A DNA stretch of 64,000 bases. Origin: Candidatus Poribacteria bacterium (lineage in GTDB: Bacteria; Poribacteria; WGA-4E; WGA-3G). Below the pieces are notes generated by a model, which searched no databases, was not told the DNA's origin, and saw only the letters and a list, made by a program, of their open reading frames with translations. Position numbers and translations under genes: made by a program. Positions 322 to 55,851 of the stretch are shown in pieces (position 1 is the first letter of the stretch; each line of letters starts with the position of its first letter). The DNA lies in NCBI GenBank assembly GCA_963668035.1, contig OY764073.1:4743308-4807307 (forward strand). Reading direction: 5' to 3'.

Positions 322-1221
322 ATGTTATATGCTGATTTTGAACGGGTGTTTGAAGCGCGTTTACAGACACGCGCCGACTCCTATGTGAACGCGGTGGAAT
401 ATCATCGCGGTCGATTTGTGCAAACGATTCAGTATCTGTTACACTCTATCTTGGAACAGACAGATACACTGGTTCAACAATCTGATGAGGATTGGGCACG
501 GACAGAAGAAGTTATCAGCGATATTCTCCACTGCACGGATGTAGATGTCCAGCAGCTCTTGACACTCAAAGTTCCGAACGAATTGACAGTGGATAGAGAT
601 TTTGAGGCGGTGAAGACGAAACTCTACGAAACGCAGTATTATCCTATTGGTGAACACCTGAACTATACTTCGTTTCCGCCTGCTCTGGAACGGAAGGCGT
701 TTATTGGCAAGCATTTCAACCGTTTCAGAGAGGATTCATATTTCTGTGATCTCGGTTTCGGCCCTGGGGTGCTAACTGCATTTATTTTACAACGGGACGC
801 TTCATGGCGCGCAGCGGGGGTTGATATTAGCAAGGATTGCCTGCGTCATGCACAGCGACTTTTGGAGAGAAAAGCGGTTTTAGGAAGGAGCGAGCTGTCG
901 GTTGCGGATGTGCGCAACCTCCCGTATCCTGACGATACTTTTGACGTGGTTGTTGCCGTTGAAGTACTTGAGCATATCCCCGACCCTGAAGTGGGTTTAG
1001 CGGAAGCGATGCGCGTGCTGAAACCGGGCGGATACGCGATTACAGCACTCCCGGTGCAATTGCCGCTGTTAATGCACCTCTACGATTTTGATACGCCTGA
1101 TGAGGTTTTAGCACTCTACGAAGAAGTTGGACTTGAGGTCATTGACTTTGAGACAAAGGAGTTTCAACTTCAAGCAGCGAATTCCTTTGTAGATACGTTC
1201 GCGTTGAGTATCAATCCGTGA
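322..1221 (+). CDS. Class I SAM-dependent methyltransferase with an N-terminal domain of unknown function
   Basis: Motif I DLGFGPGVLT and a downstream VLKPGGY motif are typical of Methyltransf_11/12. Length is 299 aa. Confidence 0.65.
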   Translation: MLYADFERVFEARLQTRADSYVNAVEYHRGRFVQTIQYLLHSILEQTDTLVQQSDEDWARTEEVISDILHCTDVDVQQLLTLKVPNELTVDRDFEAVKTKLYETQYYPIGEHLNYTSFPPALERKAFIGKHFNRFREDSYFCDLGFGPGVLTAFILQRDASWRAAGVDISKDCLRHAQRLLERKAVLGRSELSVADVRNLPYPDDTFDVVVAVEVLEHIPDPEVGLAEAMRVLKPGGYAITALPVQLPLLMHLYDFDTPDEVLALYEEVGLEVIDFETKEFQLQAANSFVDTFALSINP

Positions 1222-1242
1222 ACGAAAGGTTTTTATTGTCCA

Positions 1243-2379
1243 ATGTCAGTCTATGAATACTTTCTTATATCTTTAGCATTTATTTTTTGCGGTTATGCAA
1301 GTTGGACCGATCTGAAAACGCAGAAGATACGCAACGTCTGTTCGTTGGGGCTCCTCTATCTAGGAACCTTGAGCCAACTGATGGCATGGTATCTCGGCAC
1401 GACAACGCCGCTCTATATTTTAGTCCTTTTCTTCGGGAGCGGACTCATCGCTTTTGCCTTCTACTGGTTCGGCATCTTCTCACCGGGAGATTCTAAGCTC
1501 TTTTGGGGGTTGTGTCTGATTTTCCCACTATCGCTTTTCAGGGACCTGAGCGGTAGCCTGAGTTTTCCGCCCTTGATCCTTACGCTGAATATCATCATTC
1601 CGTATTCAATCGGTGTGCTTGGGTATCTGCTTTTCAAATTTGCGTCGATGCCAAATAAACTGGCACTCCTTCGCGGTTTTCTGATGTCAAACTTTCAGGG
1701 TGCGGCACTTTTTGAAAAACTGTTCAATCTGCTTATCTTCATCGGTATCGCGACGGCACTGACCTCCCTGCTGGAACTGATCGGATGGCAACCCGACCGG
1801 TTTCTAAGTCTCGTTTTGGTCTTAGCAGCGTTCGCGCTAATACAGAAGTTGCTATCGCCGATTCCGAAAACGCCGGTATATTATACAGTTGTCGGATTTG
1901 CGTGTGTATGGTTCTCAGTGCGGTCAGCACCTTCAGTGCCAGCATTTCTTTCCGGTTTCGCTTTTTTCTTAGGGTTATACCTCGTCGTTTTTCTTCTTGC
2001 GAAGCAGTTGGTTCTCGGTTTAGCGAGTATAGCGTTAGATAATGTCGTTGATGTGAACGGTCTCCAGGTCGGTATGATTCCAGCGGAGCAGATTATTCAG
2101 GTGACACAGCCAGATGGTAGTGTCCGTTATGAGAAAAAACAGGTCGGTTTTTCCAGTGGTCAAGCTGATAACATCATTGTTTCGCCGGATCCAGCGGGAC
2201 TTGATGCAGAGGAGATCGCGCAGTTGCAGCATCTCGCGGCGGCAGGCGCGCTTGCGGAATTTGAGAACCAGATACGGATTCAACCTTCTATCCGTTTCGC
2301 GCCGGTGATCGCTGTCGGTGCCCTGCTCACGGTTCTTTGCCAGGGACCGTTTTATCTAAAGTTGATGCAGCTGTTTTGA
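1243..2379 (+). CDS. Polytopic membrane protein with an N-terminal A24-family (prepilin peptidase CpaA/TadV-like) domain
   Basis: WTDLKTQKIRN resembles the D..T..IPN motif and GDSKLF resembles GGGDVKL, giving the two aspartate motifs of A24 peptidases. Multiple transmembrane helices are present, plus a C-terminal soluble extension. Confidence 0.5.
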   Translation: MSVYEYFLISLAFIFCGYASWTDLKTQKIRNVCSLGLLYLGTLSQLMAWYLGTTTPLYILVLFFGSGLIAFAFYWFGIFSPGDSKLFWGLCLIFPLSLFRDLSGSLSFPPLILTLNIIIPYSIGVLGYLLFKFASMPNKLALLRGFLMSNFQGAALFEKLFNLLIFIGIATALTSLLELIGWQPDRFLSLVLVLAAFALIQKLLSPIPKTPVYYTVVGFACVWFSVRSAPSVPAFLSGFAFFLGLYLVVFLLAKQLVLGLASIALDNVVDVNGLQVGMIPAEQIIQVTQPDGSVRYEKKQVGFSSGQADNIIVSPDPAGLDAEEIAQLQHLAAAGALAEFENQIRIQPSIRFAPVIAVGALLTVLCQGPFYLKLMQLF

Positions 2380-2380
2380 T

Positions 2381-4255
2381 TTGATTTGTCTTATGAAACG
2401 TGCAATTTTAGTCCTAATACTTTTAACGGTGGGTGTGACATTACCACCAATTTATTCACAGTGGGCAGAATCCCAAAGGCTTAAACAGATACAAGCCGTG
2501 AAACAACAGGCGCGCCCGATTGTCGGGGATCGGTGGGAGACGGTGCTATCAGCACTCGAAAGCGGTGTGCCACCTTCCGTAGTGATTTTATATACGGGTG
2601 GGACGCAGAGCCACTTGGAACCGTGTGGGTGTTATCAAGAAGAGTCCGGCGGATTGCCGAGACGTGCCTATGTTGTAGAGCAGTTTCGGAAGCATGGGTA
2701 CCCGACGCTTTTGGTGGATGCCGGGAACATCTTTGATGGGACAGCGGAAATAGATGCACGCCGCTGTGAAACGAATATGAAGACGTTGGCAGCGATAGGG
2801 TATTCAGCAGTAGCACTCAGCGAGTCGGATCTCGGTTATGATGACGCTTATCTGCATCGGCAGCGTGCTGTTGCAACATTTCCATTCTTAGCACCGCCTG
2901 TAGAGAACGCCGATTTCACAGAACCGTTTGTGATTGAGCAAGCTGGACGACACACCATTGCCTTTGTCGCAGGCGCAGCATCTGGAAAAGCAGTATCACA
3001 AGCACATATTGTTGTCGCTTTAGGGGAGCCTGCGGATCCCGAACATATTGATGTCGTCATCTGTCCTGATGAGATAGCGGTGCCGGTGTCTGAAGCTGGC
3101 GTGCTTTATGTCGGTTGTAAACCTGAAGGCAAAACGTTAGGCGTGTTGGCACTCTGGATAGATGCAAATGGAAAACTAACACGCCATTATACAACAGAAT
3201 TAGCGTTGACAGGCGAGGTCGGTGAATCTGAATCGGTGCGTCAGCTGCTAACAGATTTTTACCGAGATGTTGCCGCTGAAAGTCCGTCACAGGATCCACC
3301 GCTCTTTGCGAATCAGTTTTTAGAACAGCAGCACGGAAACGGGTATGTTTCGGCGACGGCGTGTCAGCGATGCCATGAGCAGGAATATCTTCAGTGGTCT
3401 GCGACGCGCCACGCCTTCGCTTACGAAACACTTCTGAAAAAGGAACGCTACTTTGACGCAGCGTGTGTCGCGTGTCATACGACTGGATTTGGTTATCCGA
3501 CAGGTTTTCAGATCGTCGACCCCGATTCAACGCTTAAAGGCGTGCAGTGTGAAACATGCCACGGGCCCGGCAAGCAGCATGTCGGCAACCCGAAAAAGAG
3601 CAATATCCGTAAAGGTGCAGACACATCGCTCTGTTTGCAATGTCACGACCCGAAACATTCGCCCGGCTTCGCGGAAGTGGTCGCACTGCATAGCAAAGAT
3701 GTTGATCACAGCCGCGCACCGATGAATTTGGAAGAACTCTTAGCGTCGCGCATCGCACGGATGGGAAAACCAACCGTAGAACTCTTTGTAATGAGTTATT
3801 GCCGGTTCGCCGTTAAAGCGGAAGAGAAGCTTGTTCCAATCGTGAAGAAGTTCGGTGACCAAATTGATTTCAAGCTGCAGTTTATTGCACAAGAGAAGGA
3901 GGCACCTTCCGCGCAGGATATAACACCCTTTACGAGTCTTCACGGTTACCCGGAAGTGGCAGAAAATATCCGGCAGCTGCTCATAGCACGGGAATACCCA
4001 AAACGGTATCTCGACTATATCTTGTGCCGCGGCAAGAAGTTGGATAAAAGCTGGGAGAAGTGTGCCGAGAAACTCGGTATGGATGTAGAGAGGATTCAAA
4101 AGTTGTTTGATGCACCCGAAGCGGAACAACTTTTCCGGGCAAACATCAAGCGCGCCGCAGAACTCGGGGTTAGAGCCTCTCCTACGATCTTGGTGGATGA
4201 ACATAAATTTAGAGCGAATCAGTTGTTACGGGCGAGTGGAACGCCGTGCCAATAG
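2381..4255 (+). CDS. Secreted multidomain protein: phosphoesterase-like N-terminus, tetraheme cytochrome c segment and a DsbA/thioredoxin-like C-terminus
   Basis: A signal peptide is followed by four CxxCH motifs (CQRCH, CVACH, CETCH, CLQCH). The C-terminal ASPTILVD and SYCRFA region is DsbA-like with a single Cys. The N-terminal YTGGTQSHLEP region resembles the metallophosphoesterase/5'-nucleotidase family. Confidence 0.55.
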   Translation: MICLMKRAILVLILLTVGVTLPPIYSQWAESQRLKQIQAVKQQARPIVGDRWETVLSALESGVPPSVVILYTGGTQSHLEPCGCYQEESGGLPRRAYVVEQFRKHGYPTLLVDAGNIFDGTAEIDARRCETNMKTLAAIGYSAVALSESDLGYDDAYLHRQRAVATFPFLAPPVENADFTEPFVIEQAGRHTIAFVAGAASGKAVSQAHIVVALGEPADPEHIDVVICPDEIAVPVSEAGVLYVGCKPEGKTLGVLALWIDANGKLTRHYTTELALTGEVGESESVRQLLTDFYRDVAAESPSQDPPLFANQFLEQQHGNGYVSATACQRCHEQEYLQWSATRHAFAYETLLKKERYFDAACVACHTTGFGYPTGFQIVDPDSTLKGVQCETCHGPGKQHVGNPKKSNIRKGADTSLCLQCHDPKHSPGFAEVVALHSKDVDHSRAPMNLEELLASRIARMGKPTVELFVMSYCRFAVKAEEKLVPIVKKFGDQIDFKLQFIAQEKEAPSAQDITPFTSLHGYPEVAENIRQLLIAREYPKRYLDYILCRGKKLDKSWEKCAEKLGMDVERIQKLFDAPEAEQLFRANIKRAAELGVRASPTILVDEHKFRANQLLRASGTPCQ

Positions 4256-4409
4256 CAATGCGCTAAGTGGATCAGTTTTTAGACATTTTCGGCGGGATAG
4301 CTCCATGCCCATTTGCGATACAATTCGTGCCGGAAGTAGTTTTCCTAACAACGATTTGGAAACCCATCTCGCTGGCGTGGAGCACCAGCAGAAAGGAGAA
4401 AACCTATAC

Positions 4410-4685
4410 ATGAAAAATAACATCCGTAGTAAAATCAGTGAATTCCTCAAATCCGAAGATGGACGCGTCGGTGCTAAATCGCCGTTAACGTTGGGTGTAG
4501 CAAGCGCGAGCTTGTTGTTAGCTCAGGCAATGGTTACGCCATCTACTCAGGCACACATGCTGTGTTATCCTTGGGCTGATGACTGTGCGGAAGGTGAGTT
4601 TTGTGTGGTTTGGTGTGAGGGAACATGGAATTTAGGAACCTGTATGGGCACATGGCATAGTCACTGTGAACCACTTGATCCTTGA
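4410..4685 (+). CDS. Small secreted cysteine-rich protein (91 aa)
   Basis: ATG at 4410 lies 11 nt after AAAGGAGAA. A hydrophobic segment LTLGVASASLLLAQAMV precedes a six-Cys C-terminus CYPWADDCAEGEFCVVWCEGTWNLGTCMGTWHSHC. The listed ORF 4107..4685 is this gene with an unsupported N-terminal extension. Confidence 0.4.
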   Translation: MKNNIRSKISEFLKSEDGRVGAKSPLTLGVASASLLLAQAMVTPSTQAHMLCYPWADDCAEGEFCVVWCEGTWNLGTCMGTWHSHCEPLDP

Positions 4686-4834
4686 TCAGGTTATCTAAGG
4701 AGATAATCCATCGGCGGTTCGTTGTCTTTGATGGGGAACCGCCATTTCGGCAATCTTGAAAGCATCTGAGGCAGGCAAGAAATAAGATTTCATAGGAGAC
4801 TGACAATTCTGTTCATTAATGATGGAGAATGCTA

Positions 4835-7774
4835 ATGGAAGACAATGATGTTCAGCTGATCTATAGGGTTTTATCGGGCGACGATGAAGCGTTTACTGCG
4901 TTGGTCCGAAAACACCAGAAAAGTGTCCACGCGCTTGTTTGGCGAAGGGTTGGTGATTTTCATTTCGCTGAAGAGATTACACAGGACGCGTTTCTCCGGG
5001 TATACAAGCAACTCCCAACGCTCAAGGATCCGAGTCAGTTTTTTGGGTGGCTGTATGTCATTACAGACCGGCTTTGTAAGGATTGGCTGAAAAAGAACAA
5101 ATCATTAATAAAATCCGTGGAGGATGTTCCCATGGTAGAAATGCAGCGAACGTCTTACGAACGTTATGTATCGGAGGAAAAAGAACAGGAGGCTCACGCG
5201 TTTCGTCAGGAACTTGTCAACAAACTTCTGGGAAAACTGCCGGAAAGCGAACGCACCGTGATGACGCTCTACTATCTCGGCGAAATGACAGCGAAGGAGA
5301 TTAGCAAATTTTTAGGGGTGTCGGTAAACACGATTACGAGTCGGCTCCAGCGAGCGCGGAAGCGTCTACAAAAAGACGAGGAGATGCTTGTTCAGGAGAC
5401 GCTCGGCGGAGTTCAATTGTCCGATAGTCTCACGGAGAACATCGCCCGGAAAGTGGCTGATGTGAAGTTGGCACCGCCTGTGAATTGGAAACCCTTCCTA
5501 CCATGGATCGCTTTTGGCATTGCATCGGTTTTGGTGCTGCTGTTAAGCGCAAGCAGTCAATACCTCCTCCGTTTCCAGAAACCGTATAGTTTTGAGGCAC
5601 AATCTGAACCGACAGTTGCAATTATTGACGCGCCTGTTGTGCTTGATGCCAACGTGAAACCGGCGGTGCGAAGTCAGGCGGGCCGCGCTGTTGTACCCAG
5701 CAAAAGCAGCGGTGATGACGTGCAGGTTTCTGAGTCGGTTTTAGATGCTAATGCACAAAATGAGTTGGTCAGATTTTCCGCGTCGCCGTGGGCACAGACA
5801 TCAGGCCCGCGAGGCGGTTCTGTCCATGATATATTTGCTACGGCTGCGGGAACGCTCTATGCTTTTTCGTCAACAGGGACCTATAGATTAGCGGCGAACG
5901 CGACGCGGTGGGTGCCAGTTGAGATTGATATGCCTATCGGAGCGTCGCGGGTACCTATGGCAGAGCATGAGGGGACGCTCTATCTTGTCTCTAACGATGC
6001 GATATTTGCCTCAACCGATGCCGGTGGGACGTGGAACACATTTTGCGACCGACCCGAGGGAAGTGCTGTTGGAATTGTTATCACGAGACAGCAAACGGGG
6101 CCTACGATGTATCTTGCCCTCCAAGAGAAAGGTGTATTCCAAACGACAGATGCTGGTGGGCAGTGGCGGCTTCTTAACGACAGATTGGTGGACAGGTCTA
6201 TTTCCGCTATAGCCGCGATTGGGGATACAGTATTTGCTGGGACAGACAAAGGGCTCTACCGCCTTGATTCGGGTGTTTGGGTACGGTTACTGGCGGATGT
6301 GCCCGGATCTATCTATTCCTTAGCGGTCTCTGAAGGCAATCTGTATGTTGGAACAGGTCCTGATTTCGTTACACTGCAACAAATTGGATCAAAACCGGCG
6401 AAGGCAGAGCAGGTAAGGTATGGCGAAAATTCAAGCGTGAGCAAAGTTTTCCACTCCGCCAACTTAGGAGCGTTTTGGACTGAGATAACGCCTACAGATG
6501 GATCTCGCCCTATAATAGCACCGGCGGGTATAAACCTGTTGGTGGCGGGGGAGACGATCTTAGCACAAGCGTTCAGCCAGTTTCAATCAAGAGATGGTGG
6601 TAAGACCTGGATTGACCTTAGATTTGGCATGACTTCGTCTATATTGGATCCTTTTCCATCTGTAGCCACAGACGAGTGGACATTTTACAAAGTAGGTCCG
6701 TCTGGTATTCATCGCACAACCGATGGCGGTGAATCGTGGCAGCTGTTCATGGATGGAATGGTGGGAACCGGAATACAGGATTTGGTCGCGATGAATAACA
6801 ACCTCTATACGTATACCAAGGAAGGCATCGTCCAATCGACAGATGGTGGGGAATCGTGGAAAGGTGTTCGGATTGATTTCGGTGAGCAAAAACCTGGCTC
6901 GGGAATAGCCAGAACGTCTCGCGGTAATTTTCCTCTTCATTCAAAATTAGTGGTCGACAGCAATGTTCTTTATGGGATTTGGGCTTCTGTAAAGGGCGAT
7001 CTGCGTATTTTCCGTTTGTCAGCTGATGACAATGTGATCGTTCCGGTACAAGGGTCCCCCGCTTTTGAAGTGGCTGTCCCATCTACAAATGACAAAGGAG
7101 CGAAACAGGTTCCCTTATCTGAGAGGCGTGAAAAAGGGGATGATTTATATGTAGCGTTCCGTAGAGAACATGAGAGAGTTGGTGCATTTGTTGTTAGTGG
7201 TGAGACGTTTTACGTCGAATATAAGCGGAAACTGTTCAGATGGCAGCCTGGCGATTTAAAGTGGAAAGACCTCGGATTGACAGATACCAGTGAACAGTCC
7301 GACCATGATTCAAAATTTGGGTTCAAGTTAGCGGTTTCAGGAGAAACTGTCTACGTCGGGAAACGGAGTGGCGATCTGTTCCAGTCGATTGATAGCGGAA
7401 ACAGTTGGAGAGACATTACGCTAACCCTTCCGCTTCGGTTTACCTATTTCAATGAGATTGTCTTTGCGGGTTCTACGGTTTACATTGCGACGGATGCCGG
7501 GGTCTTAGCCTCCGAAACCGGGGTGTATTGGCGCGTGATCAACGATAAAGTCGTTATAGACAGGTTTGCGGTAGACGGTGCCACGATTTATGGTGTTGGT
7601 GATACCGGTGTCTATCGTTTAGATATTGACGGCGACTGGGAACAGCTTTCGCCGGGTGTTCCGGGTAAAGTGCTTTCTTTCGTTGTGGATCGCAATAGAC
7701 TTTACGTTGCGACCGAACGGCGCGGAATGTTTCACATCTCGCTTGATGCAGAAAATTACCTCGCAAACGATTAA
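4835..7774 (+). CDS. ECF sigma-70 factor fused to one transmembrane helix and a large C-terminal BNR/Asp-box repeat beta-propeller domain
   Basis: Sigma-70 region 2 (DAFLRVYKQL) and region 4 HTH (LGVSVNTITSRLQRARKRL) are present. A transmembrane helix FLPWIAFGIASVLVLLLSAS follows. There are at least six S/T-x-D-x-G-x-T/S-W repeats (STDAGGTWN, TTDAGGQWR, SRDGGKTWI, TTDGGESWQ, STDGGESWK, SIDSGNSWR). ATG 4835 has better RBS spacing than ATG 4829. Confidence 0.7.
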   Translation: MEDNDVQLIYRVLSGDDEAFTALVRKHQKSVHALVWRRVGDFHFAEEITQDAFLRVYKQLPTLKDPSQFFGWLYVITDRLCKDWLKKNKSLIKSVEDVPMVEMQRTSYERYVSEEKEQEAHAFRQELVNKLLGKLPESERTVMTLYYLGEMTAKEISKFLGVSVNTITSRLQRARKRLQKDEEMLVQETLGGVQLSDSLTENIARKVADVKLAPPVNWKPFLPWIAFGIASVLVLLLSASSQYLLRFQKPYSFEAQSEPTVAIIDAPVVLDANVKPAVRSQAGRAVVPSKSSGDDVQVSESVLDANAQNELVRFSASPWAQTSGPRGGSVHDIFATAAGTLYAFSSTGTYRLAANATRWVPVEIDMPIGASRVPMAEHEGTLYLVSNDAIFASTDAGGTWNTFCDRPEGSAVGIVITRQQTGPTMYLALQEKGVFQTTDAGGQWRLLNDRLVDRSISAIAAIGDTVFAGTDKGLYRLDSGVWVRLLADVPGSIYSLAVSEGNLYVGTGPDFVTLQQIGSKPAKAEQVRYGENSSVSKVFHSANLGAFWTEITPTDGSRPIIAPAGINLLVAGETILAQAFSQFQSRDGGKTWIDLRFGMTSSILDPFPSVATDEWTFYKVGPSGIHRTTDGGESWQLFMDGMVGTGIQDLVAMNNNLYTYTKEGIVQSTDGGESWKGVRIDFGEQKPGSGIARTSRGNFPLHSKLVVDSNVLYGIWASVKGDLRIFRLSADDNVIVPVQGSPAFEVAVPSTNDKGAKQVPLSERREKGDDLYVAFRREHERVGAFVVSGETFYVEYKRKLFRWQPGDLKWKDLGLTDTSEQSDHDSKFGFKLAVSGETVYVGKRSGDLFQSIDSGNSWRDITLTLPLRFTYFNEIVFAGSTVYIATDAGVLASETGVYWRVINDKVVIDRFAVDGATIYGVGDTGVYRLDIDGDWEQLSPGVPGKVLSFVVDRNRLYVATERRGMFHISLDAENYLAND

Positions 7775-7839
7775 AATTGAGAGTTTTTCTTTACTTTTCA
7801 AAAAAATCAGAAAAAAGAATACCGCACTCGGAGGCGAAT

Positions 7840-8223
7840 GTGAAAGAATTACTGTTGGCAGATGCGAATAGGCTGTCCGACTCCCGATCTGAATACGAAG
7901 CAACCCGACAGCAGATAGATAGGGCAGACTACAAAACCCTTACGCTGAGTGAGGCAGACTTTTACGACCTCGTTTTCATGGAAGCGAATGACTCCGTCGC
8001 AACAAATCCAAACGCGATTTCTGCCATTTTTTATCAAAACTTTCTACTAAACCTCCGCCGAATTCATTCGGAGTCTGTCACGGCAGCGGTTCGCCTTCGT
8101 TGGCAGTCCGCTCGGCATAAAGTGCCTGCAGCCGAGTCGTTACGGGACCGATGCTTTCGTTTCCAATCTTTCTGCCGTCAACTTCAAGTACTGGACTCAG
8201 CTCACCGACAGTGCCGGTCGTGA
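7840..8223 (+). CDS. Hypothetical small protein; the 3' part runs antisense into ilvE
   Basis: GTG at 7840 lies 5 nt after GGAGG. The N-terminal ~80 aa look protein-like. The frame stays open about 145 bp into the convergent ilvE, so the true stop is uncertain. Confidence 0.25.
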   Translation: MKELLLADANRLSDSRSEYEATRQQIDRADYKTLTLSEADFYDLVFMEANDSVATNPNAISAIFYQNFLLNLRRIHSESVTAAVRLRWQSARHKVPAAESLRDRCFRFQSFCRQLQVLDSAHRQCRS

Positions 8224-15137: not shown

Positions 15138-16541
15138 TCAATCGTCGTCCCAATTTATGCGGTGGAAGGGGGTGCCTTCTGCTTTCGCTTTTCGGACTTT
15201 TTCAAGTTCGCGCCGAACAGTTTCATTCGGCCAAAGCTCATACTTTGCTTCGTAAAACCGGAGGAATTCATCTTCATCCTCTGGAAATCTAAAGCTGCCA
15301 GCCATCAATTTTTTCTTGCCCGCAATGACGGTAAAAACTTCAGGGAAAGGTCCATATTGTGCGGTGAGGTGGCTTTTGTATTCTCTTTCAAAAGTTTCGG
15401 GATCATCTGTCTTCTTCCAGAGTTCCATCAAGATAGCGTCTGCGTCTTTACGATACGCTTGATTCTCGGATTCTGTAGCGATGTACTGTAGATAAAGTTG
15501 CGCCCGTAGGAACTCGTCACGCTGAGCGTATACCAACCCTGATCGGAACAGGATCTCTTCAGCGGCCTGAATGTAATTTTCGTTCTTCCCATGTTTGATG
15601 ATCCATTGTAAACTCTCCGGTGACACGCTACCCCGGTAGTGGTATACCAACCCTAAGTAGAATCTGTATGTCTCACATTGGTAGATAATGTCCCCGTGCC
15701 GAACCATCTGATAATTATACGCACCCAATAGCTGAATAAGGAACTTGTTATTGCCGGCATAGAATCTTTCGTTATTCAAGACGTAAGCGTTTCCATCCCA
15801 CTCGTAGAGGGTCATCCATTCCAGATGCGGTGCGCCCGGGACATCTTCAATATGTATGCTGTATGGAATTTTAATTTCGTAGGTGCCATCGTTATCCAAG
15901 TCAACGTACTCGGCATCAGATAGAAATCCGGGAACCGTATAGCAGCTAAAGACTGTCTTGAACTCGCCGTTTTGAAAGGCGATCACAGCCACACCGTAGG
16001 TAGATTCGAACCATATATCTAAAATGCCATCGCCTGTCAAATCAAGTAGTCTAACACCTGCATCGCGAGACTTAAGCGCGCTTTTCGGGGGTTGTGTGAA
16101 GACGAAGGGTGGACTCTGAAGTTCAACGGTTTTCGCTGGCACCTGCAAATCACGAGTGCCTGTATCAAAAAGTTTGAAAGCGTCTTTTTTCTGCAGTGCC
16201 CCCGCTTCGTTCTTAGCAATGAAGAGAAACGCTTGGATCCAGTTCCCGGTGTCTGGGTATGTATGCTTTTCCATAATATCATCCACCAGCATTAGAACAA
16301 CGATCTCTTTTTCGAGGGTGTCGTCAATATTTGCGGTGGCTGTCATCCGGGTCAGGTAAAAGAGGCCTTCGGGTGCCGGATCAGGTAAAAACCTGTGATA
16401 CTTTTGTCCCTTATTTGAATAATACCGTTGATACTCGACATCAGGTGTTATCGTTTTAGCGGTATCCGCATTCGCTGGAAAAGAGGTGAGTATCAGCAAA
16501 ATAGCAAGTGCTAAAAGTGCGCCACGAATATGTTGATTCAT
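15138..16541 (-). CDS. Secreted hypothetical protein, paralog A (467 aa), with DxDxDG-like motifs
   Basis: It has a signal peptide. Conserved blocks shared with 16681..17709 include VDLTGDGILDIW, YVDLDNDGTYEIK and LEWxxLYEWDGxxYVLNNERFYA. Confidence 0.5.
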   Translation of the reverse strand: MNQHIRGALLALAILLILTSFPANADTAKTITPDVEYQRYYSNKGQKYHRFLPDPAPEGLFYLTRMTATANIDDTLEKEIVVLMLVDDIMEKHTYPDTGNWIQAFLFIAKNEAGALQKKDAFKLFDTGTRDLQVPAKTVELQSPPFVFTQPPKSALKSRDAGVRLLDLTGDGILDIWFESTYGVAVIAFQNGEFKTVFSCYTVPGFLSDAEYVDLDNDGTYEIKIPYSIHIEDVPGAPHLEWMTLYEWDGNAYVLNNERFYAGNNKFLIQLLGAYNYQMVRHGDIIYQCETYRFYLGLVYHYRGSVSPESLQWIIKHGKNENYIQAAEEILFRSGLVYAQRDEFLRAQLYLQYIATESENQAYRKDADAILMELWKKTDDPETFEREYKSHLTAQYGPFPEVFTVIAGKKKLMAGSFRFPEDEDEFLRFYEAKYELWPNETVRRELEKVRKAKAEGTPFHRINWDDD

Positions 16542-16680: not shown

Positions 16681-17709
16681 TCAATAGGATGGGAGTTTTT
16701 TCAGGAGTGATTCAGCGGCTTGGATGTAAACTTGCTGCTCGGCATGTTCAACGACCCGCTGTAGGTGCCTTCGTGCCATTGAGGTGTCGCCTCGATAGTA
16801 ATATACCAACCCTACGTAGAAACTGTATGGTTCGTATTTTCCATACCAAATCAGTGCACTATTATACTGCTGCAATAACCCAATGAGGAACTCGTCATTC
16901 TTGGCATAGAACCTTTCGTTATTCAAGATGTATGTGGTGCCATCCCACTCGTAGAGGTTCGTCCATTCCAGATAGCGCACCCCAGGAATATCAATCATAA
17001 ATATGCTGCTTTGAAGCTTTATTTCGTAGCTGCCATCATTATCCAAGTCAATATACTCAGGAGCCTGCTCCCTGTAATACACGTAGCAGCTAAAAACTTC
17101 CTTGAATTCACCATCCTGAAAAGAAATAACAGCGACACCATAAGCATGATCAATCCAGATGTCTAAAATGCCATCGCCTGTCAAATCAACGAGGTCAAAC
17201 GAAATCCACTTGAACCCCCAAGACTCACCGCTCCACAATTCCCGGAAAACGAAGGGTAGGTTACGAAGTACAACGGTTTTCCCTGGCACATCCAAATCAT
17301 AGGTCCCCGCATCAAAAAGTTTGAAAAGGTCTTTTTGCTGCGGAAGCCCCCCCTCGGTCTCAGCTTCGGTGATGAGGAGAAACGCTTGGCACCATTCGCG
17401 CCATTCTTCGCCTGCTTCAGCTACCATCAGCACAATCGTCTCTTTTTCCTGCGTATTATCAATATTGGCTACGGCTTTCTGCCGGGTATTGTAAGAAACC
17501 CCTTGCGGTGCAGGGAAATGCAGAAACCGGTGATACTTTCGCCCTTCAGGATCAATCGGCAAATCAGGATACGCTTTATACTTGACATCAGAAGTTTCGG
17601 GGGTTAGTGGATTAGCATTCACCGCCAAACAACTCAGTATCAGCAAAATAGCAAGTCCTAAAAGGATGCTCTGAATGTGTTTCGCTACAATTTTTGTTTT
17701 CCTATACAT
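16681..17709 (-). CDS. Secreted or lipoprotein hypothetical protein, paralog B (342 aa)
   Basis: It has a signal peptide with a possible LSC lipobox. It is about 50% identical to paralog A across the shared region. Confidence 0.5.
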   Translation of the reverse strand: MYRKTKIVAKHIQSILLGLAILLILSCLAVNANPLTPETSDVKYKAYPDLPIDPEGRKYHRFLHFPAPQGVSYNTRQKAVANIDNTQEKETIVLMVAEAGEEWREWCQAFLLITEAETEGGLPQQKDLFKLFDAGTYDLDVPGKTVVLRNLPFVFRELWSGESWGFKWISFDLVDLTGDGILDIWIDHAYGVAVISFQDGEFKEVFSCYVYYREQAPEYIDLDNDGSYEIKLQSSIFMIDIPGVRYLEWTNLYEWDGTTYILNNERFYAKNDEFLIGLLQQYNSALIWYGKYEPYSFYVGLVYYYRGDTSMARRHLQRVVEHAEQQVYIQAAESLLKKLPSY

Positions 17710-17765: not shown

Positions 17766-19964
17766 TCAGTCCCACAGCAGCACTGTACGGTCCCGTCCGC
17801 CACTTGCGAGTGTCTTGCCATCCGGACTAAACGATACACTATAGACGCTACCCGTATGACCAGCAAGTTTTGCCTTGAGACTACCCGTCTCAACGTCCCA
17901 CAAAAGCACCGTATAATCTGGCCACGCATCTCCACTTGCGAGTGTCTTGCCATCCGGACTAAACGATACACTATAGACGCTACCCGTATGACCAGCAAGT
18001 TTTGCCTTGAGACTACCCGTCTCAACGTCCCACAAAAGCACCGCCTGGTCCCCGGCATCCCGACTTGCACTGACAAGTGTCGTGCCATCCGGACTAAACA
18101 ATACTTGCCTGATTTCACCCTTATGCGCGAGTGTCCTTGTGACCTCACTGGTCGTAACATCCCACAAAAGCACCTTATGTGTATTGTCTATCTCACTTCG
18201 ACTTGCACTTGCGAGTGTCTTACCATCCGGACTAAACAATACGTTGTAGACACTGCCCGTCCGGCTGGTGAGTTTCGCTTTCAGGGTGCCCGTCGTAACG
18301 TCCCACAAATGAAGAACCTTACTGTCCCGAACCGCACTTGCGAGCGTCTTGCCATCCGGACTAAACGATACATTCCAGACGACATCCGTATGCGGTGTCC
18401 TTTTGACCTTACCTGTCGCAACATCCCACAAAAGTACCGTATATTTATAACCCTCCCCATGAATTCGACTCATACAGGCAAGTGTCTTGCCATCCGGACT
18501 AAACGATACACTATAGACCTCCCCTGTACGACCGGTGAGTTTCGTTTTGAGGGTGCCCGTCACAACGTCCCACAAACGCACCTTACCGTCCCAACTTGCA
18601 CTGGCAAGCGTAGCCCCATCCGGACTGAACGACACACTCCTAACTTCACCCATGTGTTCGGTGAGAGTCGCTTTCACAGTCCCTGTCTCAACGTCCCACA
18701 AACGCACTTTATCTTTAGCTCCCCTCTGACTTTGACTCCAATAGGCAAGTGTGTTACCATCTGGACTGAACAACACACGCTTAACCGCATCCGTATGTCC
18801 GGTGAGAACCGCTTTCACAGTCCCTGTCGTAACATCCCACAAACGCACTATATCGTCCTGGTCTCCGCTCTTACTCACAAGCGTTTTGCCATCTGGACTG
18901 AACAACACACGCTTAACCGCATCCGTATGTCCGGTGAGAACCGCTTTCACAGCACCCGTCGTAACGTCCCACAAACGCACTGTTTTGTCTGCACTCCCAC
19001 TTGCGAGTGTTTTGCCATCTGGACTGAACACGATACTACTGACCACATCTGTATGTCCAATGAAGGTTGCTTTTACCGTACCGGTCCCAATGTCCCACAA
19101 ACGCATCCCATACTCTCGGTCCCACTTATTATTGTCGGCACTTGCGAGCGTTTTACCATCTGGGCTGAATGATAAACTATTGACCCAATCCCCAGGTTGA
19201 GTGAGGGTCACTTGTACCTCACCGGTTGCAACGTCCCACAAACGAATTGTTTTGTCATAACTACCTGCAAGCGTTTTGCCATCTGGACTGAACGATAAAT
19301 TCCGAATCGCGAAATCCTCTCCCATGAATTTCGCTTTCAGGGTGCCCGTCACAACGTCCCACAAATGAACCGTACTGTCATAACTCCAACCACCACTCAC
19401 AAGCGTCTTGCCATCCATGCTAAACCAGACACTACCAACCGCGTTCTCAGGCTCGGTGAATTTCGCTTTCAACGAACCCGTCGCAACGTCCCACAAACGC
19501 ACCGTACTGTCATAACTTCCGCTCGCAAGTGTAGCACTATCCGGACTGAACGATAAACTCCCGATCCGACTCGTATGTCCGATGAATGTACCTTTCATAT
19601 TACCCGTCGTAACGTCCCACAAACGCACCATACAGTCCATATCCGCACCGCCGCTGGCAAGTGTCTTACCATCCGGACTAAACGCCAAACTATAGACCCA
19701 ATCCATACCGCCCGCAAGAAATGCCTGTTCTTCGGATGTTTTCGTATCATACAGCCATATACCGATATTACTCCCTACCGCGAGCAACGCACCGTCCGGA
19801 GAATACGTTATTTCTCCTATACTGCCTTTACCGAGACGTGCTTTGGCACCCTCGGGTAAACTGAATTGGGTATATGCCACAGATTGTGCGAACCCCGGAA
19901 AAATACTGACGCTCGAAACTATCAGGAGCGTTAAGGTCAACAAAAACGTTCTTCTTACTTTCAT
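17766..19964 (-). CDS. Secreted WD40-repeat beta-propeller protein (732 aa, about 16 WD repeats)
   Basis: A signal peptide MKVRRTFLLTLTLLIVSSVSIFPGFAQS is present. The repeated units are SFSPDGKTLASG...VRLWDV.TG. The C-terminal repeats are identical at protein and DNA level. Confidence 0.85.
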   Translation of the reverse strand: MKVRRTFLLTLTLLIVSSVSIFPGFAQSVAYTQFSLPEGAKARLGKGSIGEITYSPDGALLAVGSNIGIWLYDTKTSEEQAFLAGGMDWVYSLAFSPDGKTLASGGADMDCMVRLWDVTTGNMKGTFIGHTSRIGSLSFSPDSATLASGSYDSTVRLWDVATGSLKAKFTEPENAVGSVWFSMDGKTLVSGGWSYDSTVHLWDVVTGTLKAKFMGEDFAIRNLSFSPDGKTLAGSYDKTIRLWDVATGEVQVTLTQPGDWVNSLSFSPDGKTLASADNNKWDREYGMRLWDIGTGTVKATFIGHTDVVSSIVFSPDGKTLASGSADKTVRLWDVTTGAVKAVLTGHTDAVKRVLFSPDGKTLVSKSGDQDDIVRLWDVTTGTVKAVLTGHTDAVKRVLFSPDGNTLAYWSQSQRGAKDKVRLWDVETGTVKATLTEHMGEVRSVSFSPDGATLASASWDGKVRLWDVVTGTLKTKLTGRTGEVYSVSFSPDGKTLACMSRIHGEGYKYTVLLWDVATGKVKRTPHTDVVWNVSFSPDGKTLASAVRDSKVLHLWDVTTGTLKAKLTSRTGSVYNVLFSPDGKTLASASRSEIDNTHKVLLWDVTTSEVTRTLAHKGEIRQVLFSPDGTTLVSASRDAGDQAVLLWDVETGSLKAKLAGHTGSVYSVSFSPDGKTLASGDAWPDYTVLLWDVETGSLKAKLAGHTGSVYSVSFSPDGKTLASGGRDRTVLLWD
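17803..18043. repeat. Near-identical tandem DNA duplication (about 130-bp unit, 2 copies) inside the WD40 gene
   Basis: The ~110-bp core CACTTGCGAGTGTCTTGCCATCCGGACTAAACGATACACTATAGACGCTACCCGTATGACCAGCAAGTTTTGCCTTGAGACTACCCGTCTCAACGTCCCACAAAAGCACCG occurs twice, starting at 17803 and at 17937. Confidence 0.8.
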
Positions 19965-26523: not shown

Positions 26524-26529
26524 GGCACA

Positions 26530-30783: not shown

Positions 30784-30799
30784 ATTTCAAAATTCCTTC

Positions 30800-51606: not shown

Positions 51607-51983
51607 AAATGCCAGGGATATAGGATTGTTCTGGGCCGTAGCCTCCCAATCACGCGGCATGGAGCCGCATTTCGTCCCTGACAATTATATTATACTATAA
51701 AATAGTATAGATGTCAAGTAGAAGTCGAATAATTTTTTTCGGAGGCAGGCAAATTAGGAGACCCTTTTGAAGGTGCTCTCCCAAATTTTACAGATGTTGC
51801 GTTTTCGGTATAAGTTTGCCCGGAGTTTTCTCAACAATTGTTGATTTTTTGGCAATTTATGACGTTTTTTTCATTTTATGCACGAAATGGACTCAAAAAA
51901 GGAGTCTATATAAGATAGCGTTGGGCGAATGTTTAGACTTAAGTGTTCACTTGTGTGTTGTTGAAACAGCGGGGTTTTGATCA

Positions 51984-55847: not shown

Positions 55848-55851
55848 AGTG

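What the first reader, a model, noticed from the sequence alone, without database searches (positions are those of the whole stretch)
4835..7774. One-polypeptide ECF sigma factor, transmembrane helix and BNR beta-propeller
A complete ECF sigma domain (regions 2 and 4) is covalently linked through one transmembrane helix to an ~700-aa periplasmic or extracellular propeller built of SxDxGxTW repeats. The sigma factor, anti-sigma tether and sensor are fused. If the sigma domain must be released, this implies proteolytic activation.
Basis: seen in the sequence. Interest (0 to 1): 0.6.

Follow-up and report, generated by a model that had tools for sequence, protein, structure and literature searches.

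The report
Membrane-tethered ECF sigma with propeller sensor
This gene of a sponge-symbiont bacterium (Candidatus Poribacteria) really does join a complete ECF sigma factor, one membrane helix and a large double beta-propeller in one protein. It belongs to a large family, apparently not described in the papers I could search, that reuses the same sigma-plus-membrane module with different outside sensor domains.

Summary
An uninterrupted ORF (4829/4835-7774, +) encodes an RpoE/SigW-like ECF sigma (regions 2 and 4), two short cytoplasmic helices, a single hydrophobic helix, a conserved outside juxtamembrane motif, and a GH74-like tandem 7+7-bladed Asp-box propeller.

It is not a frameshift artefact: more than 120 full-length homologues (65-91% identity, about 980 aa) exist. 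All named or titled relatives come from Candidatus Poribacteria, often several per genome and in tandem.

The same sigma-TM-juxtamembrane module is also fused to WD40 and Kelch propellers. TM and juxtamembrane segments are more conserved than the sensor. The sensor core is mosaic between close relatives, which points to recombination.

A strand-specific bipartite motif (TTATGCAC-N20-GTCTTTAA) precedes 34 of 91 sigma-module genes and neighbouring secreted-protein genes. It is a candidate shared, autoregulated promoter.

Proteolytic release is the most likely mechanism, by analogy with IutY and SCO4117, but it is inferred and not shown.

The A24-like peptidase is a genuine GxGD enzyme and is syntenic. 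An adjacent pilin-like Cys-rich peptide is its more obvious substrate.

Verdict: a new variant of a known kind (ECF sigmas with transmembrane C-terminal extensions); moderately interesting.

The parts
4835..7774 (+). Gene for the sigma-TM-propeller protein. An alternative in-frame ATG lies at 4829; residue numbers in this report count from 4829.
   Evidence: Single ORF. Shine-Dalgarno GGAG at 4824-4827. Full-length homologues.
4901..5101 (+). Sigma region 2 (aa 25-91).
   Evidence: Pfam Sigma70_r2, E 3.6e-13. Nearest solved relatives are SigW, AlgU and RpoE.
5213..5368 (+). Sigma region 4 (aa 129-180). S165, R172 and R175 in this region are invariant in 111 family members; reading them as the recognition helix is an assumption.
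   Evidence: Pfam Sigma70_r4_2, E 1.4e-15. Invariant columns.
5372..5491 (+). Cytoplasmic tail (aa 182-221). It has two helices (182-192 and 200-211, motif LTENI) and then K221-P222. It may be a minimal cis anti-sigma element.
   Evidence: AlphaFold2 with a 111-sequence alignment, block-mean pLDDT 71-84 over aa 181-210. Closed sigma2/sigma4 arrangement in the model. Conserved in diverse members.
5492..5563 (+). Single transmembrane helix (aa 222-245) with invariant P222 and P225.
   Evidence: Kyte-Doolittle peak 2.26, the only segment at or above 1.6. Invariant columns. Mean pairwise identity 0.49 against 0.35-0.37 for the propellers.
5564..5683 (+). Extracytoplasmic juxtamembrane motif (aa 246-285; RFQKPYSFEAxSExT[IV]EI[IV]DAPVVL..KPAVRNQxG). 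It is a candidate processing or regulatory site.
   Evidence: Conserved in the BNR, WD40 and Kelch versions. P252 and Y253 are invariant in 111 sequences. Identity 0.52.
5684..5803 (+). Variable, low-confidence spacer (aa 286-325).
   Evidence: Identity 0.26. pLDDT below 50.
5804..7753 (+). Tandem Asp-box (BNR) beta-propeller, about 14 blades (aa 326-975). This is the presumed periplasmic ligand-binding sensor.
   Evidence: Pfam Sortilin-Vps10, PSII_BNR and DUF6242 hits. AlphaFold2 strands. Foldseek matches to GH74 enzymes (E 5e-19) and to the Bacteroides HTCS sensors BT4673 and BT4663 (E 1e-15 and 2e-13).
5885..7234 (+). Mosaic, fast-diverging core of the sensor (codons about 353-802).
   Evidence: Against the syntenic orthologue L081 this stretch is 77-93% nt identical, with pS up to 0.61. 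The gene ends are 95-100% identical and the flanks 96-98%. The same pattern appears in other pairs.
1243..2379 (+). A24-like GxGD intramembrane aspartyl peptidase (378 aa), in the conserved upstream cluster.
   Evidence: Pfam Peptidase_A24, 26.7 bits. D23 (TDLKTQKIRN) and D83 (SPGDSKLF) are conserved in the 6 full-length members of the 8-sequence family alignment (window plus 5 loci; two rows are truncated). Synteny.
2381..4255 (+). Signal-anchored protein with four CxxCH haem motifs and a C-terminal DsbA-like domain. It is a recurrent neighbour of this sigma family.
   Evidence: Pfam Cytochrome_C554 and DSBA. Four CxxCH motifs. The single-linkage neighbour cluster that contains it (which also pulled in haem-less PqqD-glycosyltransferases) has 30 members in 16 loci; about 11 carry CxxCH motifs.
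4410..4685 (+). Small Cys-rich peptide gene (91 aa). It has a conserved charged leader ending in G, a hydrophobic stretch, and a variable C-terminus with about 7 Cys.
   Evidence: Family of 7 in the loci, plus two copies in L081 with near-identical leaders and divergent cores.
4713..4743 (+). Stem-loop between the peptide gene and the sigma gene.
   Evidence: RNA fold -27.8 kcal/mol, z -2.5. Conserved in L081. Not scored as a canonical terminator.
51864..51916 (+). The only copy in the window of the family-associated promoter-like motif (TTTTTTTCAtTTTATGCAC-N20-GTCTATAT). It lies about 70 nt upstream of a ZorA/ZorB-like operon.
   Evidence: PWM score 40.8 against at most -4.8 in shuffles. PADLOC ZorA3 and ZorB3 hits.

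Best explanation
**What it is.** The gene encodes a one-polypeptide transmembrane signalling device of Candidatus Poribacteria.
- An RpoE/SigW-like ECF sigma factor sits in the cytoplasm.
- A 38-residue two-helix tail and a proline-containing membrane helix tie it to the membrane.
- Outside, the chain continues as a conserved 40-residue juxtamembrane motif and a GH74-like double seven-bladed Asp-box propeller, which acts as the ligand-binding sensor. The ligand is probably a glycan or another extracytoplasmic molecule.

**How it most likely works.**
- In the resting state the sigma domain is unavailable to RNA polymerase. It is held at the membrane and possibly clamped shut by its own tail helices.
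- Ligand-dependent change in the propeller exposes the juxtamembrane or membrane segment to regulated proteolysis.
- The freed sigma domain then directs RNA polymerase to a promoter type shared by the whole paralogue family (TTATGCAC-N20-GTCTTTAA). This promoter precedes many sigma-module genes and neighbouring operons for secreted propeller, lectin-like, ABC-2 and peptide-maturation proteins.

**Shown.**
- The architecture and its conservation.
- The modular reuse of the sigma-TM module.
- The fold of the sensor.
- The association of the motif with these genes.

**Inferred.**
- Topology.
- Ligand class.
- Cis-inhibition by the tail.
- Proteolytic release.
- That this sigma reads that motif.
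For: **Architecture**
- Sigma regions 2 and 4.
- A single hydrophobic helix.
- A 14-blade model with GH74 and HTCS-sensor fold matches.

**A real gene and a family**
- More than 120 full-length homologues.
- The 78 best loci carry Poribacteria titles except one labelled 'uncultured bacterium'.
- 216 clusters at 50% identity match the sensor at E<=1e-30, mostly with the match starting at about residue 245.
- 2255 proteins match the module profile at E<=1e-20.

**Modularity**
- The same module is fused to a Kelch domain (L065 1700-3661) and to a WD40 domain (L071 7273-10017).

**Constraint on the tether**
- Mean pairwise identity is 0.49 for the TM helix and 0.52 for the juxtamembrane motif, against 0.35-0.37 for the propellers.
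- P222, P225, P252 and Y253 are invariant in 111 sequences.

**Closed sigma model**
- The best global fits are anti-sigma-bound ECFs: 4cxf_A (TM-score 0.71, rmsd 5.2 A) and 5wuq_A (0.63, 5.6 A).
- Holoenzyme-bound sigmas fit at 0.29-0.41 with rmsd about 27 A.
- Tail helices have block-mean pLDDT of 71-84 over aa 181-210.

**Precedents for release by proteolysis**
- IutY, via Prc and RseP, and SCO4117 (PMC8999054).

**Promoter motif**
- 61 exact-pattern instances with fixed spacing.
- The PWM gives 104 hits in 1.02 Mb and none in shuffles.
- 34 of 91 sigma-module genes carry it, against 54 of 674 other genes (odds ratio 6.8, p 2e-12).
- In the syntenic orthologue L081 it heads the operon that ends with the sigma gene.
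- S165, R172 and R175, which I take to lie in the sigma4 recognition helix (an assumption, not tested), are invariant, so the paralogues probably share promoter specificity.
Against: - No protease cleavage has been observed, and no site-1 or site-2 protease was found in the window ORFs scanned or in the flanks of 78 loci.
- There is no recognisable anti-sigma domain.
- AlphaFold2 tends to give compact ECF models anyway. Contacts between tail and sigma could not be inspected, and the TM and juxtamembrane parts have pLDDT below 50.
- The link between this sigma family and the motif is by position only.
- The PWM was trained on the same loci it was then used to scan.
- The motif is absent in the 300 nt upstream of the window gene.
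- The motif's spacing (about 20 nt between GCAC and GTC) is long for an ECF promoter.
- The ligand is unknown. Similarity to GH74 is at fold level only.
Confidence: 0.55

Rival explanations
1. Tethered but active. The sigma domain is never released. The 38-residue tail lets it bind RNA polymerase at the membrane, as ToxR and CadC bind DNA while membrane-anchored. The propeller controls activity through conformation or oligomerisation.
For: - No dedicated protease is conserved across the family.
- The TM helix and juxtamembrane motif are conserved, as expected for a signal-transmitting segment.
- The tail is long enough in principle (about 38 residues).
- Planctomycete ECF-WD40 proteins were recovered in detergent fractions (PMC8567305).
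Against: - No example of a sigma factor that works while membrane-anchored is known to me (own knowledge).
- Fused sigma/anti-sigma proteins studied so far (IutY, SCO4117) are activated by truncation or proteolysis (PMC8999054).
- Invariant prolines at the cytoplasmic end of the helix suit a protease substrate.
Confidence: 0.2
2. Single-step release by the neighbouring A24-like GxGD peptidase. The sigma domain occupies the position of a prepilin leader (N-in, C-out). It is cut off at the cytoplasmic face of the helix near the invariant K221-P222.
For: - The catalytic motifs D23 and G-D83 are intact and conserved.
- The gene order methyltransferase, A24-like peptidase, cytochrome c/DsbA, small peptide, sigma-propeller is conserved in part or in full (the A24-like gene always present) in the window, L003, L008, L009, L010, L029, L057 and L081. 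L002 carries a separate A24-like gene in another arrangement.
- In L081 the cluster lies on one strand behind one motif promoter.
- The substrate topology matches that of prepilins.
Against: - An A24-like gene was seen in only 7 of the 78 loci scanned (plus the window and its orthologue L081).
- The other paralogue groups have different neighbours: a C39-like peptidase, ABC-2 permeases, or 3-keto-disaccharide hydrolase-like genes.
- There is no Gly at -1, which is nearly invariant in prepilin substrates (own knowledge).
- The adjacent small peptide, with leader ...GRVG followed by a hydrophobic stretch, is a better-fitting substrate.
Confidence: 0.12
3. The propeller is chiefly an enzyme or adhesin (for example a GH74-type glycanase), and the sigma domain is a degenerate anchor without a regulatory role.
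For: - Top fold matches are GH74 enzymes.
- NCBIfam gives partial hits to a BNR glycosylhydrolase family (98.8 bits).
- GH74 is reported as abundant in Poribacteria genomes (PMC6081418).
Against: - The sigma domains are the most conserved part of the protein (0.64-0.69 identity), with invariant sigma4 residues (S165, R172, R175) that I take to be DNA-reading.
- pN/pS in the sigma part is 0.09 or less in all four 50-codon blocks.
- No GH74 sequence matches at E<=1.
- The NCBIfam score is far below its cut-off of 175.
Confidence: 0.05
4. Artefact: two genes joined by a sequencing or assembly frameshift.
For: None found.
Against: The same uninterrupted architecture occurs in more than 120 independent clusters and in 79 further full-length genes from many assemblies, including closed long-read genomes.
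Confidence: 0.01

Closest known systems
ECF57 (which I recall includes the earlier ECF01-Gob group; not checked) of Planctomycetes: ECF sigmas with long C-terminal extensions rich in WD40-like repeats
   Same: - An ECF core is followed by a long beta-propeller extension.
- There are many copies per genome: 5.3 per planctomycete genome (PMC7826278).
- No separate anti-sigma gene is present.
- A Poribacteria paralogue of the window protein carries WD40 repeats on the same module (L071).
   Different: - The window protein has Asp-box/BNR blades, not WD40 repeats.
- The sigma core has one conserved Cys (C83). ECF57 is described as having two Cys linking sigma2 and sigma4 (PMC8999054).
- The phylum is different.
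- The ECF57 model itself could not be scored here.
IutY of Pseudomonas putida (ECF243): a sigma/anti-sigma hybrid
   Same: - It is one polypeptide with the sigma domain in the cytoplasm, one membrane span and a periplasmic sensor part.
- It is activated by regulated proteolysis through Prc and RseP (PMC8999054).
   Different: - IutY carries a FecR-type anti-sigma and periplasmic domain and works with a TonB-dependent receptor.
- No FecR domain is detected here, and the sensor is a double propeller.
SCO4117 of Streptomyces coelicolor (ECF52), and ECF48 and ECF53
   Same: - An ECF sigma is fused through transmembrane helices to an extracytoplasmic, carbohydrate-binding extension.
- Proteolytic activation has been proposed (PMC8999054).
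   Different: - Those extensions contain a zinc-finger anti-sigma domain and a proline-rich region.
- Here the tail has no Cys or His motif and is only 38 residues long.
- Those groups are from Actinobacteria.
SigW/RsiW, RpoE/RseA and AlgU/MucA two-protein systems
   Same: - These are the closest solved relatives of the sigma core (E 1e-20 to 1e-16).
- Their sigma is held by a single-pass membrane protein and released by site-1 and site-2 proteolysis (own knowledge).
   Different: - In those systems sigma and anti-sigma are separate proteins with a full anti-sigma domain of about 80 residues.
- Here they are one chain with a minimal tail.
Periplasmic sensor domains of Bacteroides hybrid two-component systems (BT4663, BT4673)
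   Same: - A tandem beta-propeller of about 700 residues sits outside the membrane and is joined through a membrane span to a cytoplasmic transcription-control module in one protein. BT4663 senses heparin and heparan sulphate (PDB entry title).
- Fold matches are E 1e-15 and 2e-13.
   Different: - The output there is a histidine kinase, receiver and AraC-type domain rather than a sigma factor.
- The Pfam Reg_prop hit is only marginal (E 0.063).
GH74 xyloglucanases
   Same: They are the best fold match: two seven-bladed Asp-box propellers (2cn3_A, E 5e-19).
   Different: - Identity is 13-16%, and there is no sequence-level hit at E<=1.
- Catalytic residues were not assessed.
- GH74 enzymes are secreted enzymes, not membrane-tethered regulators.

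Membership tests
ECF (group 4) sigma-70 family | Regions sigma2 and sigma4 are present, and sigma1.1 and sigma3 are absent. | tested here: met
   Sigma70_r2 at aa 25-91 and Sigma70_r4_2 at aa 129-180. TIGR02937 scores 100.8 bits against a cut-off of 42.9. There is no r3 or r1 hit.
ECF57 (planctomycetal ECF with WD40-like extension) | C-terminal extension dominated by WD40-like repeats. | tested here: not met
   The window protein has Asp-box/BNR blades and no WD40 Pfam hit. A paralogue with the same module does have WD40 repeats (L071).
ECF57 (planctomycetal ECF with WD40-like extension) | Two conserved cysteines that could link sigma2 and sigma4 (PMC8999054). | tested here: not met
   The only Cys residues are C83 (invariant, sigma2) and C406 (propeller). 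There is none in sigma4.
ECF57 (planctomycetal ECF with WD40-like extension) | Score above threshold with the group's HMM of the ECF classification 2.0. | not testable with these tools
   The ECF Hub group models and the supplementary text are not available here.
ECF52, ECF48 and ECF53 (actinobacterial fused sigma/anti-sigma) | A zinc-finger (ZAS-like) anti-sigma domain between sigma4 and the membrane helix. | tested here: not met
   There is no Cys in aa 184-221 (no His in the translation), no zf-HC2 or RskA hit at E<=0.1, and the tail is only 38 residues long.
ECF243 IutY-like sigma/anti-sigma hybrids | A FecR-type anti-sigma and periplasmic domain. | tested here: not met
   No FecR-family Pfam hit.
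Class I anti-sigma domain (RseA/RsiW type) | A helical bundle of about 80 residues that binds sigma2 and sigma4. | tested here: not met
   Only two short helices are present (aa 182-192 and 200-211). A profile of the tail, TM helix and juxtamembrane motif finds no anti-sigma protein in the PDB.
Substrate of regulated intramembrane proteolysis | A single-pass N-in/C-out helix with helix-destabilising residues. | tested here: met
   There is one hydrophobic helix. P222 and P225 are invariant and G240 is conserved in at least 90% of 111 sequences. Cleavage itself was not tested.
GH74 glycoside hydrolases | Sequence membership of the family, including the catalytic Asp pair in the inter-propeller cleft. 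| tested here: inconclusive
   The fold matches. No GH74 chain hits by sequence at E<=1. The related NCBIfam F510_1955 scores 98.8 bits against a cut-off of 175. The catalytic residues could not be aligned reliably at 13-16% identity, and the CAZy/dbCAN model is not available.
Sortilin/Vps10 domain | A ten-bladed propeller followed by the 10CC module. | tested here: not met
   The Pfam hit covers only profile positions 2-58 of 446. The model has two seven-bladed units. The ectodomain has only one Cys.
Peptidase A24 (for the neighbour at 1243-2379) | Two catalytic Asp residues, the second in a GxGD-like motif, within a polytopic membrane protein. | tested here: met
   D23 and SPGD83 are conserved in the 6 full-length members aligned. 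There are at least six hydrophobic segments. The Pfam score is 26.7 bits against a cut-off of 26.5.

The most novel reading that the evidence does not exclude
Poribacteria run a 'many sensors, one promoter' network.
- Dozens of membrane-tethered sigma paralogues keep the same residues in sigma region 4 (invariant S165, R172, R175), which I take to read the promoter.
- They swap and recombine their outside propeller cassettes (BNR, WD40, Kelch), so that many extracellular cues converge on one regulon.
- In the window's subfamily the sigma gene is the last gene of an operon. That operon also makes a leader-bearing Cys-rich peptide and its maturation enzymes: PqqD-glycosyltransferases, a methyltransferase, a DsbA-cytochrome and a GxGD peptidase.
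- In this reading the propeller senses that peptide, and the GxGD peptidase frees the sigma in one cut. This would be a self-inducing circuit with a release mechanism not known for sigma factors.
Probability: 0.1. Interest if true: 0.85.

Novelty: new variant of a known kind. Interest (0 to 1): 0.55.

Why it matters
- **Known class, new variant.** ECF sigma factors with transmembrane C-terminal extensions are known mostly from bioinformatics, and only a few have been studied experimentally.
- **A natural modular system.** One conserved sigma-tail-helix-juxtamembrane cassette is joined to interchangeable propeller sensors. That makes the question of how such one-polypeptide sigmas are switched on directly testable by domain swaps, truncations and protease co-expression.
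- **Sponge symbiosis.**
  - The family is apparently confined to, and strongly expanded in, a dominant and uncultivated sponge symbiont phylum.
  - These proteins may therefore be a main route by which Poribacteria sense the host matrix.
  - Some of the 'GH74' abundance reported for Poribacteria genomes may really be such sensors rather than enzymes. This was not tested.
- **Engineering.** The conserved promoter motif gives a handle for predicting the regulon and for building orthogonal sensor-sigma parts.

Tried and rejected
- **Paralogue in the window.** The 985-aa ORF at 33793-36750 is an Eco57I-type restriction-modification enzyme, not a relative. tblastn finds no second copy in the window.
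- **First genome scan.** The scan with the single protein found nothing; the alignment-based scan succeeded.
- **Exact-sequence look-up.** The window protein is not on record.
- **Proteases in or near the window.**
  - Pfam, with PADLOC on ten proteins, was run on 41 window ORFs.
  - No M50/RseP, DegS/PDZ, PrsW or Prc was found.
  - The only peptidases besides the A24-like one are Zn_peptidase_2 (38206-38919) and an M78/IrrE-like regulator (32447-33745).
  - A regex for HExGH plus NxxPxxxxDG found no M50-like ORF in the flanks of 78 loci.
- **Local promoter and terminator.** The consensus scan around the gene gave counts no higher than in shuffles. I therefore make no claim of a terminator at the 4713-4743 stem-loop.
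- **Family promoter motif near the window gene.** There is none within 3 mismatches. The orthologue shows it at the head of the operon, beyond the left edge of the window.
- **Tail, TM helix and juxtamembrane profile against the PDB.** The only hit was a Notch3 TM peptide at E 0.054. I treated it as a composition match.
- **Literature.**
  - No paper in the library links Poribacteria with ECF sigmas.
  - Jogler 2012, Wiegand 2020 and Kamke 2013 are not held.
  - The supplements of the ECF classification are not held, so assignment to a numbered ECF group was not possible.
- **RNA genes.** There is no Rfam family or tRNA in the window.

Full report
**1.

The + strand carries one uninterrupted ORF from 4829 to 7774 (981 codons). 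It is the likelier start, because GGAG at 4824-4827 lies 7 nt upstream of it and orthologues begin MEDND.

- Pfam finds Sigma70_r2 (aa 25-91, E 3.6e-13) and Sigma70_r4_2 (aa 129-180, E 1.4e-15). It also finds partial Sortilin-Vps10, PSII_BNR and DUF6242 hits between aa 390 and 700.
- NCBIfam's general ECF model TIGR02937 covers aa 20-182 at 100.8 bits (cut-off 42.9). No specific equivalog is reached.
- The only strongly hydrophobic stretch is aa 223-245 (Kyte-Doolittle 2.26).
- Seven Asp-box motifs lie at aa 395, 439, 543, 587, 630, 670 and 853.
- The protein has only two cysteines, C83 and C406.

**2. It is a real gene in a large family, not a frameshift**

- A search of 5.8 billion proteins returned more than 120 clusters of 938-995 aa (nearly all 967-995), 65-91% identical over 95-100% of the length, all with sigma plus BNR-type Pfam hits.
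- An alignment of 30 of them is conserved end to end, with mean column identity 79%.
  - The 78 best loci carry Candidatus Poribacteria titles, except one labelled only 'uncultured bacterium'. The window is therefore from a sponge-symbiont poribacterium.
  - Several genomes contribute three or more copies, for example OX639973.1, OZ244804.1 and the WGA-3G single-cell genome.
- Within 6 kb of these loci, further copies often sit in tandem.
- A full HMMER scan with the ectodomain alone gave 216 clusters (50% identity) at E<=1e-30. Most are 950-1040 aa with the match starting at about residue 245, which is the same architecture. A few are stand-alone secreted or lipoprotein versions.

**3. Anatomy of the sensor**

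- The full-length AlphaFold2 model has mean pLDDT 63, with the propeller part mostly 70-90. It shows about 56 strands between aa 332 and 971, which I counted as 14 four-stranded blades.
- Foldseek against the PDB ranks GH74 xyloglucanases first (2cn3_A, E 5e-19). These are tandem seven-bladed Asp-box propellers.
- It also finds the periplasmic double-propeller sensors of the Bacteroides hybrid two-component systems BT4673 (E 1e-15) and BT4663 (E 2e-13).
- At sequence level only Ycf48 (E 3.6e-6) and one BNR protein match; no GH74 enzyme does.
- I therefore read the ectodomain as a GH74-like fold used as a binding domain. This is by analogy with the Bacteroides sensors and is not shown.

**4. 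A reusable sigma-helix-juxtamembrane module**

- In the related loci, the first 300 or so residues also occur fused to other domains. These residues comprise the sigma, the tail, the helix and the motif RFQKPYSFEAxSExTIEIIDAPVVL..KPAVRNQxG.
  - In L065 1700-3661 (653 aa) they are fused to Kelch repeats.
  - In L071 7273-10017 (914 aa) they are fused to WD40 repeats.
- A profile of the module retrieved 2255 proteins at E<=1e-20.
  - The best 120 are 284-515 aa proteins carrying the module plus WD40, Kelch, DUF6242_C or no known domain.
  - Every hit to which a source gives an organism name is poribacterial.
- Across 27 diverse full-length members, mean pairwise identity by region is:

| Region | Identity |
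|---|---|
| sigma2 | 0.64 |
| sigma4 | 0.69 |
| cytoplasmic tail | 0.45 |
| TM helix | 0.49 |
| outside juxtamembrane motif | 0.52 |
| spacer | 0.26 |
| propellers | 0.35-0.37 |

- In 111 module proteins P222, P225, P252 and Y253 are invariant. So are S165, R172 and R175, which I take to lie in the sigma4 recognition helix, and W74, Y76, I78 and W86 of sigma2.
- A membrane helix and flanks more conserved than the sensor argue that the tether has a function of its own.
- If those sigma4 residues do read the promoter, their invariance suggests the paralogues share promoter specificity. This is an inference.

**5. State of the sigma domain**

- The closest solved relatives are SigW, AlgU and RpoE (E 1e-20 to 1e-16). 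To my knowledge all three are released by proteolysis of a single-pass anti-sigma.
- Only 38 residues separate sigma4 from the helix, and no anti-sigma domain or zinc motif is present.
- With a 111-sequence alignment, AlphaFold2 gives helices at aa 182-192 and 200-211. Block-mean pLDDT across aa 181-210 is 84, 71 and 81.
- The model's sigma2/sigma4 arrangement superposes best on anti-sigma-bound ECFs: CnrH/CnrY 4cxf_A (TM-score 0.71, rmsd 5.2 A) and SigW/RsiW 5wuq_A (0.63, 5.6 A).
- It superposes poorly on holoenzyme-bound sigmas (0.29-0.41, rmsd about 27 A).
- This fits a minimal cis-inhibitory tail like the short CnrY. It rests on a model whose contacts I could not inspect.

**6. A candidate shared promoter**

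- A strand-specific dyad search of 463 upstream regions found TTTTTTTCAnATTATGCAC-N14/15-AAAAnnnnGTCTTTAA.
- There are 61 pattern instances. The span from TTATGCA to TCTTTAA is 34 or 35 nt in 60 of them.
- A position weight matrix at 15 bits or more gives 104 hits in 1.02 Mb and none in 30 shuffled loci.
- 34 of 91 sigma-module genes have the motif within 300 nt upstream, against 54 of 674 other genes (odds ratio 6.8, p 2e-12).
- The other downstream genes are mainly ABC-2 permeases, secreted PD40/Kelch propellers and Laminin_G_3 proteins.
- The matrix was trained on the same loci, so the counts are generous. The gene association and strand bias, however, are not built in.
- The window gene has no copy nearby.
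  - In the syntenic orthologue L081 the motif sits at 55-89, at the head of a same-strand cluster that ends with the sigma gene. A second copy lies just downstream of the sigma gene.
  - The left edge of the window cuts this cluster.
- The single copy in the window (51864-51916, score 40.8 against at most -4.8 in shuffles) precedes a ZorA3/ZorB3-like operon.

**7. Neighbours and the A24 question**

- In the window's subfamily the gene order is conserved in part or in full, with the A24-like gene always present. The full order is: methyltransferase (322-1221), A24-like peptidase (1243-2379), four-haem cytochrome with DsbA domain (2381-4255), small Cys-rich peptide (4410-4685), then the sigma-propeller gene.
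  - This order recurs in L003, L008, L009, L010, L029, L057 and L081. A phosphoglucomutase or PD40 gene is sometimes inserted.
- The peptidase has both catalytic motifs, D23 and SPGD83, conserved in the six full-length members aligned.
- An A24-like gene was seen in only 7 of the 78 loci scanned.
- Other paralogue groups have different immediate neighbours:
  - a C39-like peptidase directly downstream (13 loci);
  - ABC-2 permeases directly upstream (21 loci);
  - 3-keto-disaccharide hydrolase-like, Laminin_G_3, CBM9/DUF5916 and GFO/IDH/MocA genes.
- The small peptides have near-identical leaders (MKNNIRSKISEFLKSEDGRVG) followed by a hydrophobic stretch and divergent Cys-rich ends. This is the pattern of a prepilin-like or precursor-peptide substrate.
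- PqqD-fused glycosyltransferases lie in the same clusters.
- The simplest reading is that the A24-like enzyme serves that peptide. A role in freeing the sigma factor cannot be excluded, because the topology would fit and K221-P222 is invariant. I rate it at about 0.12.
- No M50, DegS, PrsW or Prc gene was found among the 41 window ORFs scanned or in the flanks of the 78 loci.

**8. A mosaic sensor**

- Pairs of family members are about 100% identical over the first 250-350 and last 100-150 alignment columns but only about 45-88% (mostly 57-75%) in between.
- Against the syntenic orthologue L081:
  - the flanks are 96-98% identical at DNA level;
  - codons 1-350 and 801-981 are 95-100% identical;
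  - codons 351-800 are 77-93% identical, with synonymous divergence up to 0.61 and pN/pS of 0.17-0.53.
- Raised synonymous divergence confined to the sensor core points to recombination with other copies rather than to point mutation alone.

**9. Comparison with what is known**

- ECF sigmas with C-terminal extensions are the second most common regulatory type, with 19 groups (PMC7826278).
- Transmembrane fused forms are described for IutY (ECF243; regulated proteolysis by Prc and RseP), for SCO4117 (ECF52) and for ECF48 and ECF53. ECF57 of Planctomycetes carries WD40-like repeats (PMC8999054).
- The present family works like these but fails their defining features where I could test them: it has no FecR domain, no zinc finger, and only one conserved Cys in the core, and the window member has Asp-box rather than WD40 blades.
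- Group HMMs were not available, so a numbered ECF group cannot be assigned.
- I found no paper in the library that links Poribacteria with ECF sigma factors or describes this fusion. Public names are only 'RNA polymerase sigma factor'.
[quoted passage not shown] Whether such counts include these sensors is an open and testable lead.

**10. Verdict**

The mechanism of sequestration followed by proteolytic release is the best-supported reading, at about 0.55, but it is inferred. This is a new variant of a known kind: a lineage-specific, strongly expanded, modular and recombining family of membrane-tethered ECF sigma factors with propeller sensors.

Noticed in passing
window 322-4685 (+); L081 149-9848: There is a conserved same-strand cluster upstream of the sigma gene. 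It holds a SAM methyltransferase, an A24-like GxGD peptidase, a four-haem cytochrome c fused to a DsbA-like domain, and one or two small peptides with near-identical leaders and divergent Cys-rich ends. In orthologues two PqqD-fused glycosyltransferases precede it. It looks like a maturation cluster for a modified, disulphide-rich peptide (glycocin-like).
   Followed up: partly
window 51984-61704 (+), motif at 51864-51916: This is a Zorya-like operon: ZorA3-like (578 aa), ZorB3-like/OmpA (225 aa), two proteins with no hits (474 and 645 aa), and a 1096-aa Tubulin_2 protein. It is preceded by the window's only copy of the promoter motif associated with the sigma family. A near-identical motif copy lies just downstream of the sigma gene in L081 (13014-13048).
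   Followed up: partly
window 25804-33745: This is a CBASS-type defence island. It holds an E2-like/SEC-C protein, two SMODS cyclases (one with an AGS_C domain), a SAVED-HNH effector, a patatin phospholipase and a capH/capP-like HTH-M78 regulator. An Eco57I-type restriction-modification enzyme follows at 33793-36750 (-).
   Followed up: partly
window 17766-19964 (-): This is a 732-aa stand-alone WD40 protein with no sigma domain. Two FG-GAP-like proteins (15138-16541 and 16681-17709) lie next to it.
   Followed up: no
L016-L032 group, e.g. L027 8260-9024: In another paralogue subfamily, a 224-254 aa C39-like peptidase gene lies directly downstream of the sigma-propeller gene (within about 370 nt, in several loci overlapping its 3' end) on the same strand. 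This holds in 13 loci. DUF1573 and Laminin_G_3 genes follow. It is another candidate processing enzyme.
   Followed up: no
P0147 (731 aa): This is a stand-alone propeller protein whose N-terminus keeps only the LTENIM helix and the membrane helix of the module. It is either a split two-gene version or a truncated copy.
   Followed up: no
L002, L003, L006, L007, L010, L012, L029 and others, about 94-125 nt (up to 215 nt) upstream of the sigma genes: Most members of the closest subfamily also carry a sigma-70-type extended -10 element (TGGTATACT) between the family motif and the start codon. This suggests two promoters. The window copy lacks it.
   Followed up: partly
window 4713-4743: A conserved stem-loop (CGGCGGUUC...GGAACCGCC, z -2.5) lies between the small peptide gene and the sigma gene. 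It is also present in L081. It might set the ratio of peptide to downstream transcripts.
   Followed up: partly
window 7775-8077 versus L081 12944-18862: The orthologous locus has about 5.9 kb more between the sigma gene and the aminotransferase gene. The extra DNA includes a BglII-type restriction-modification pair, so the region around the sigma gene is an indel hotspot.
   Followed up: no
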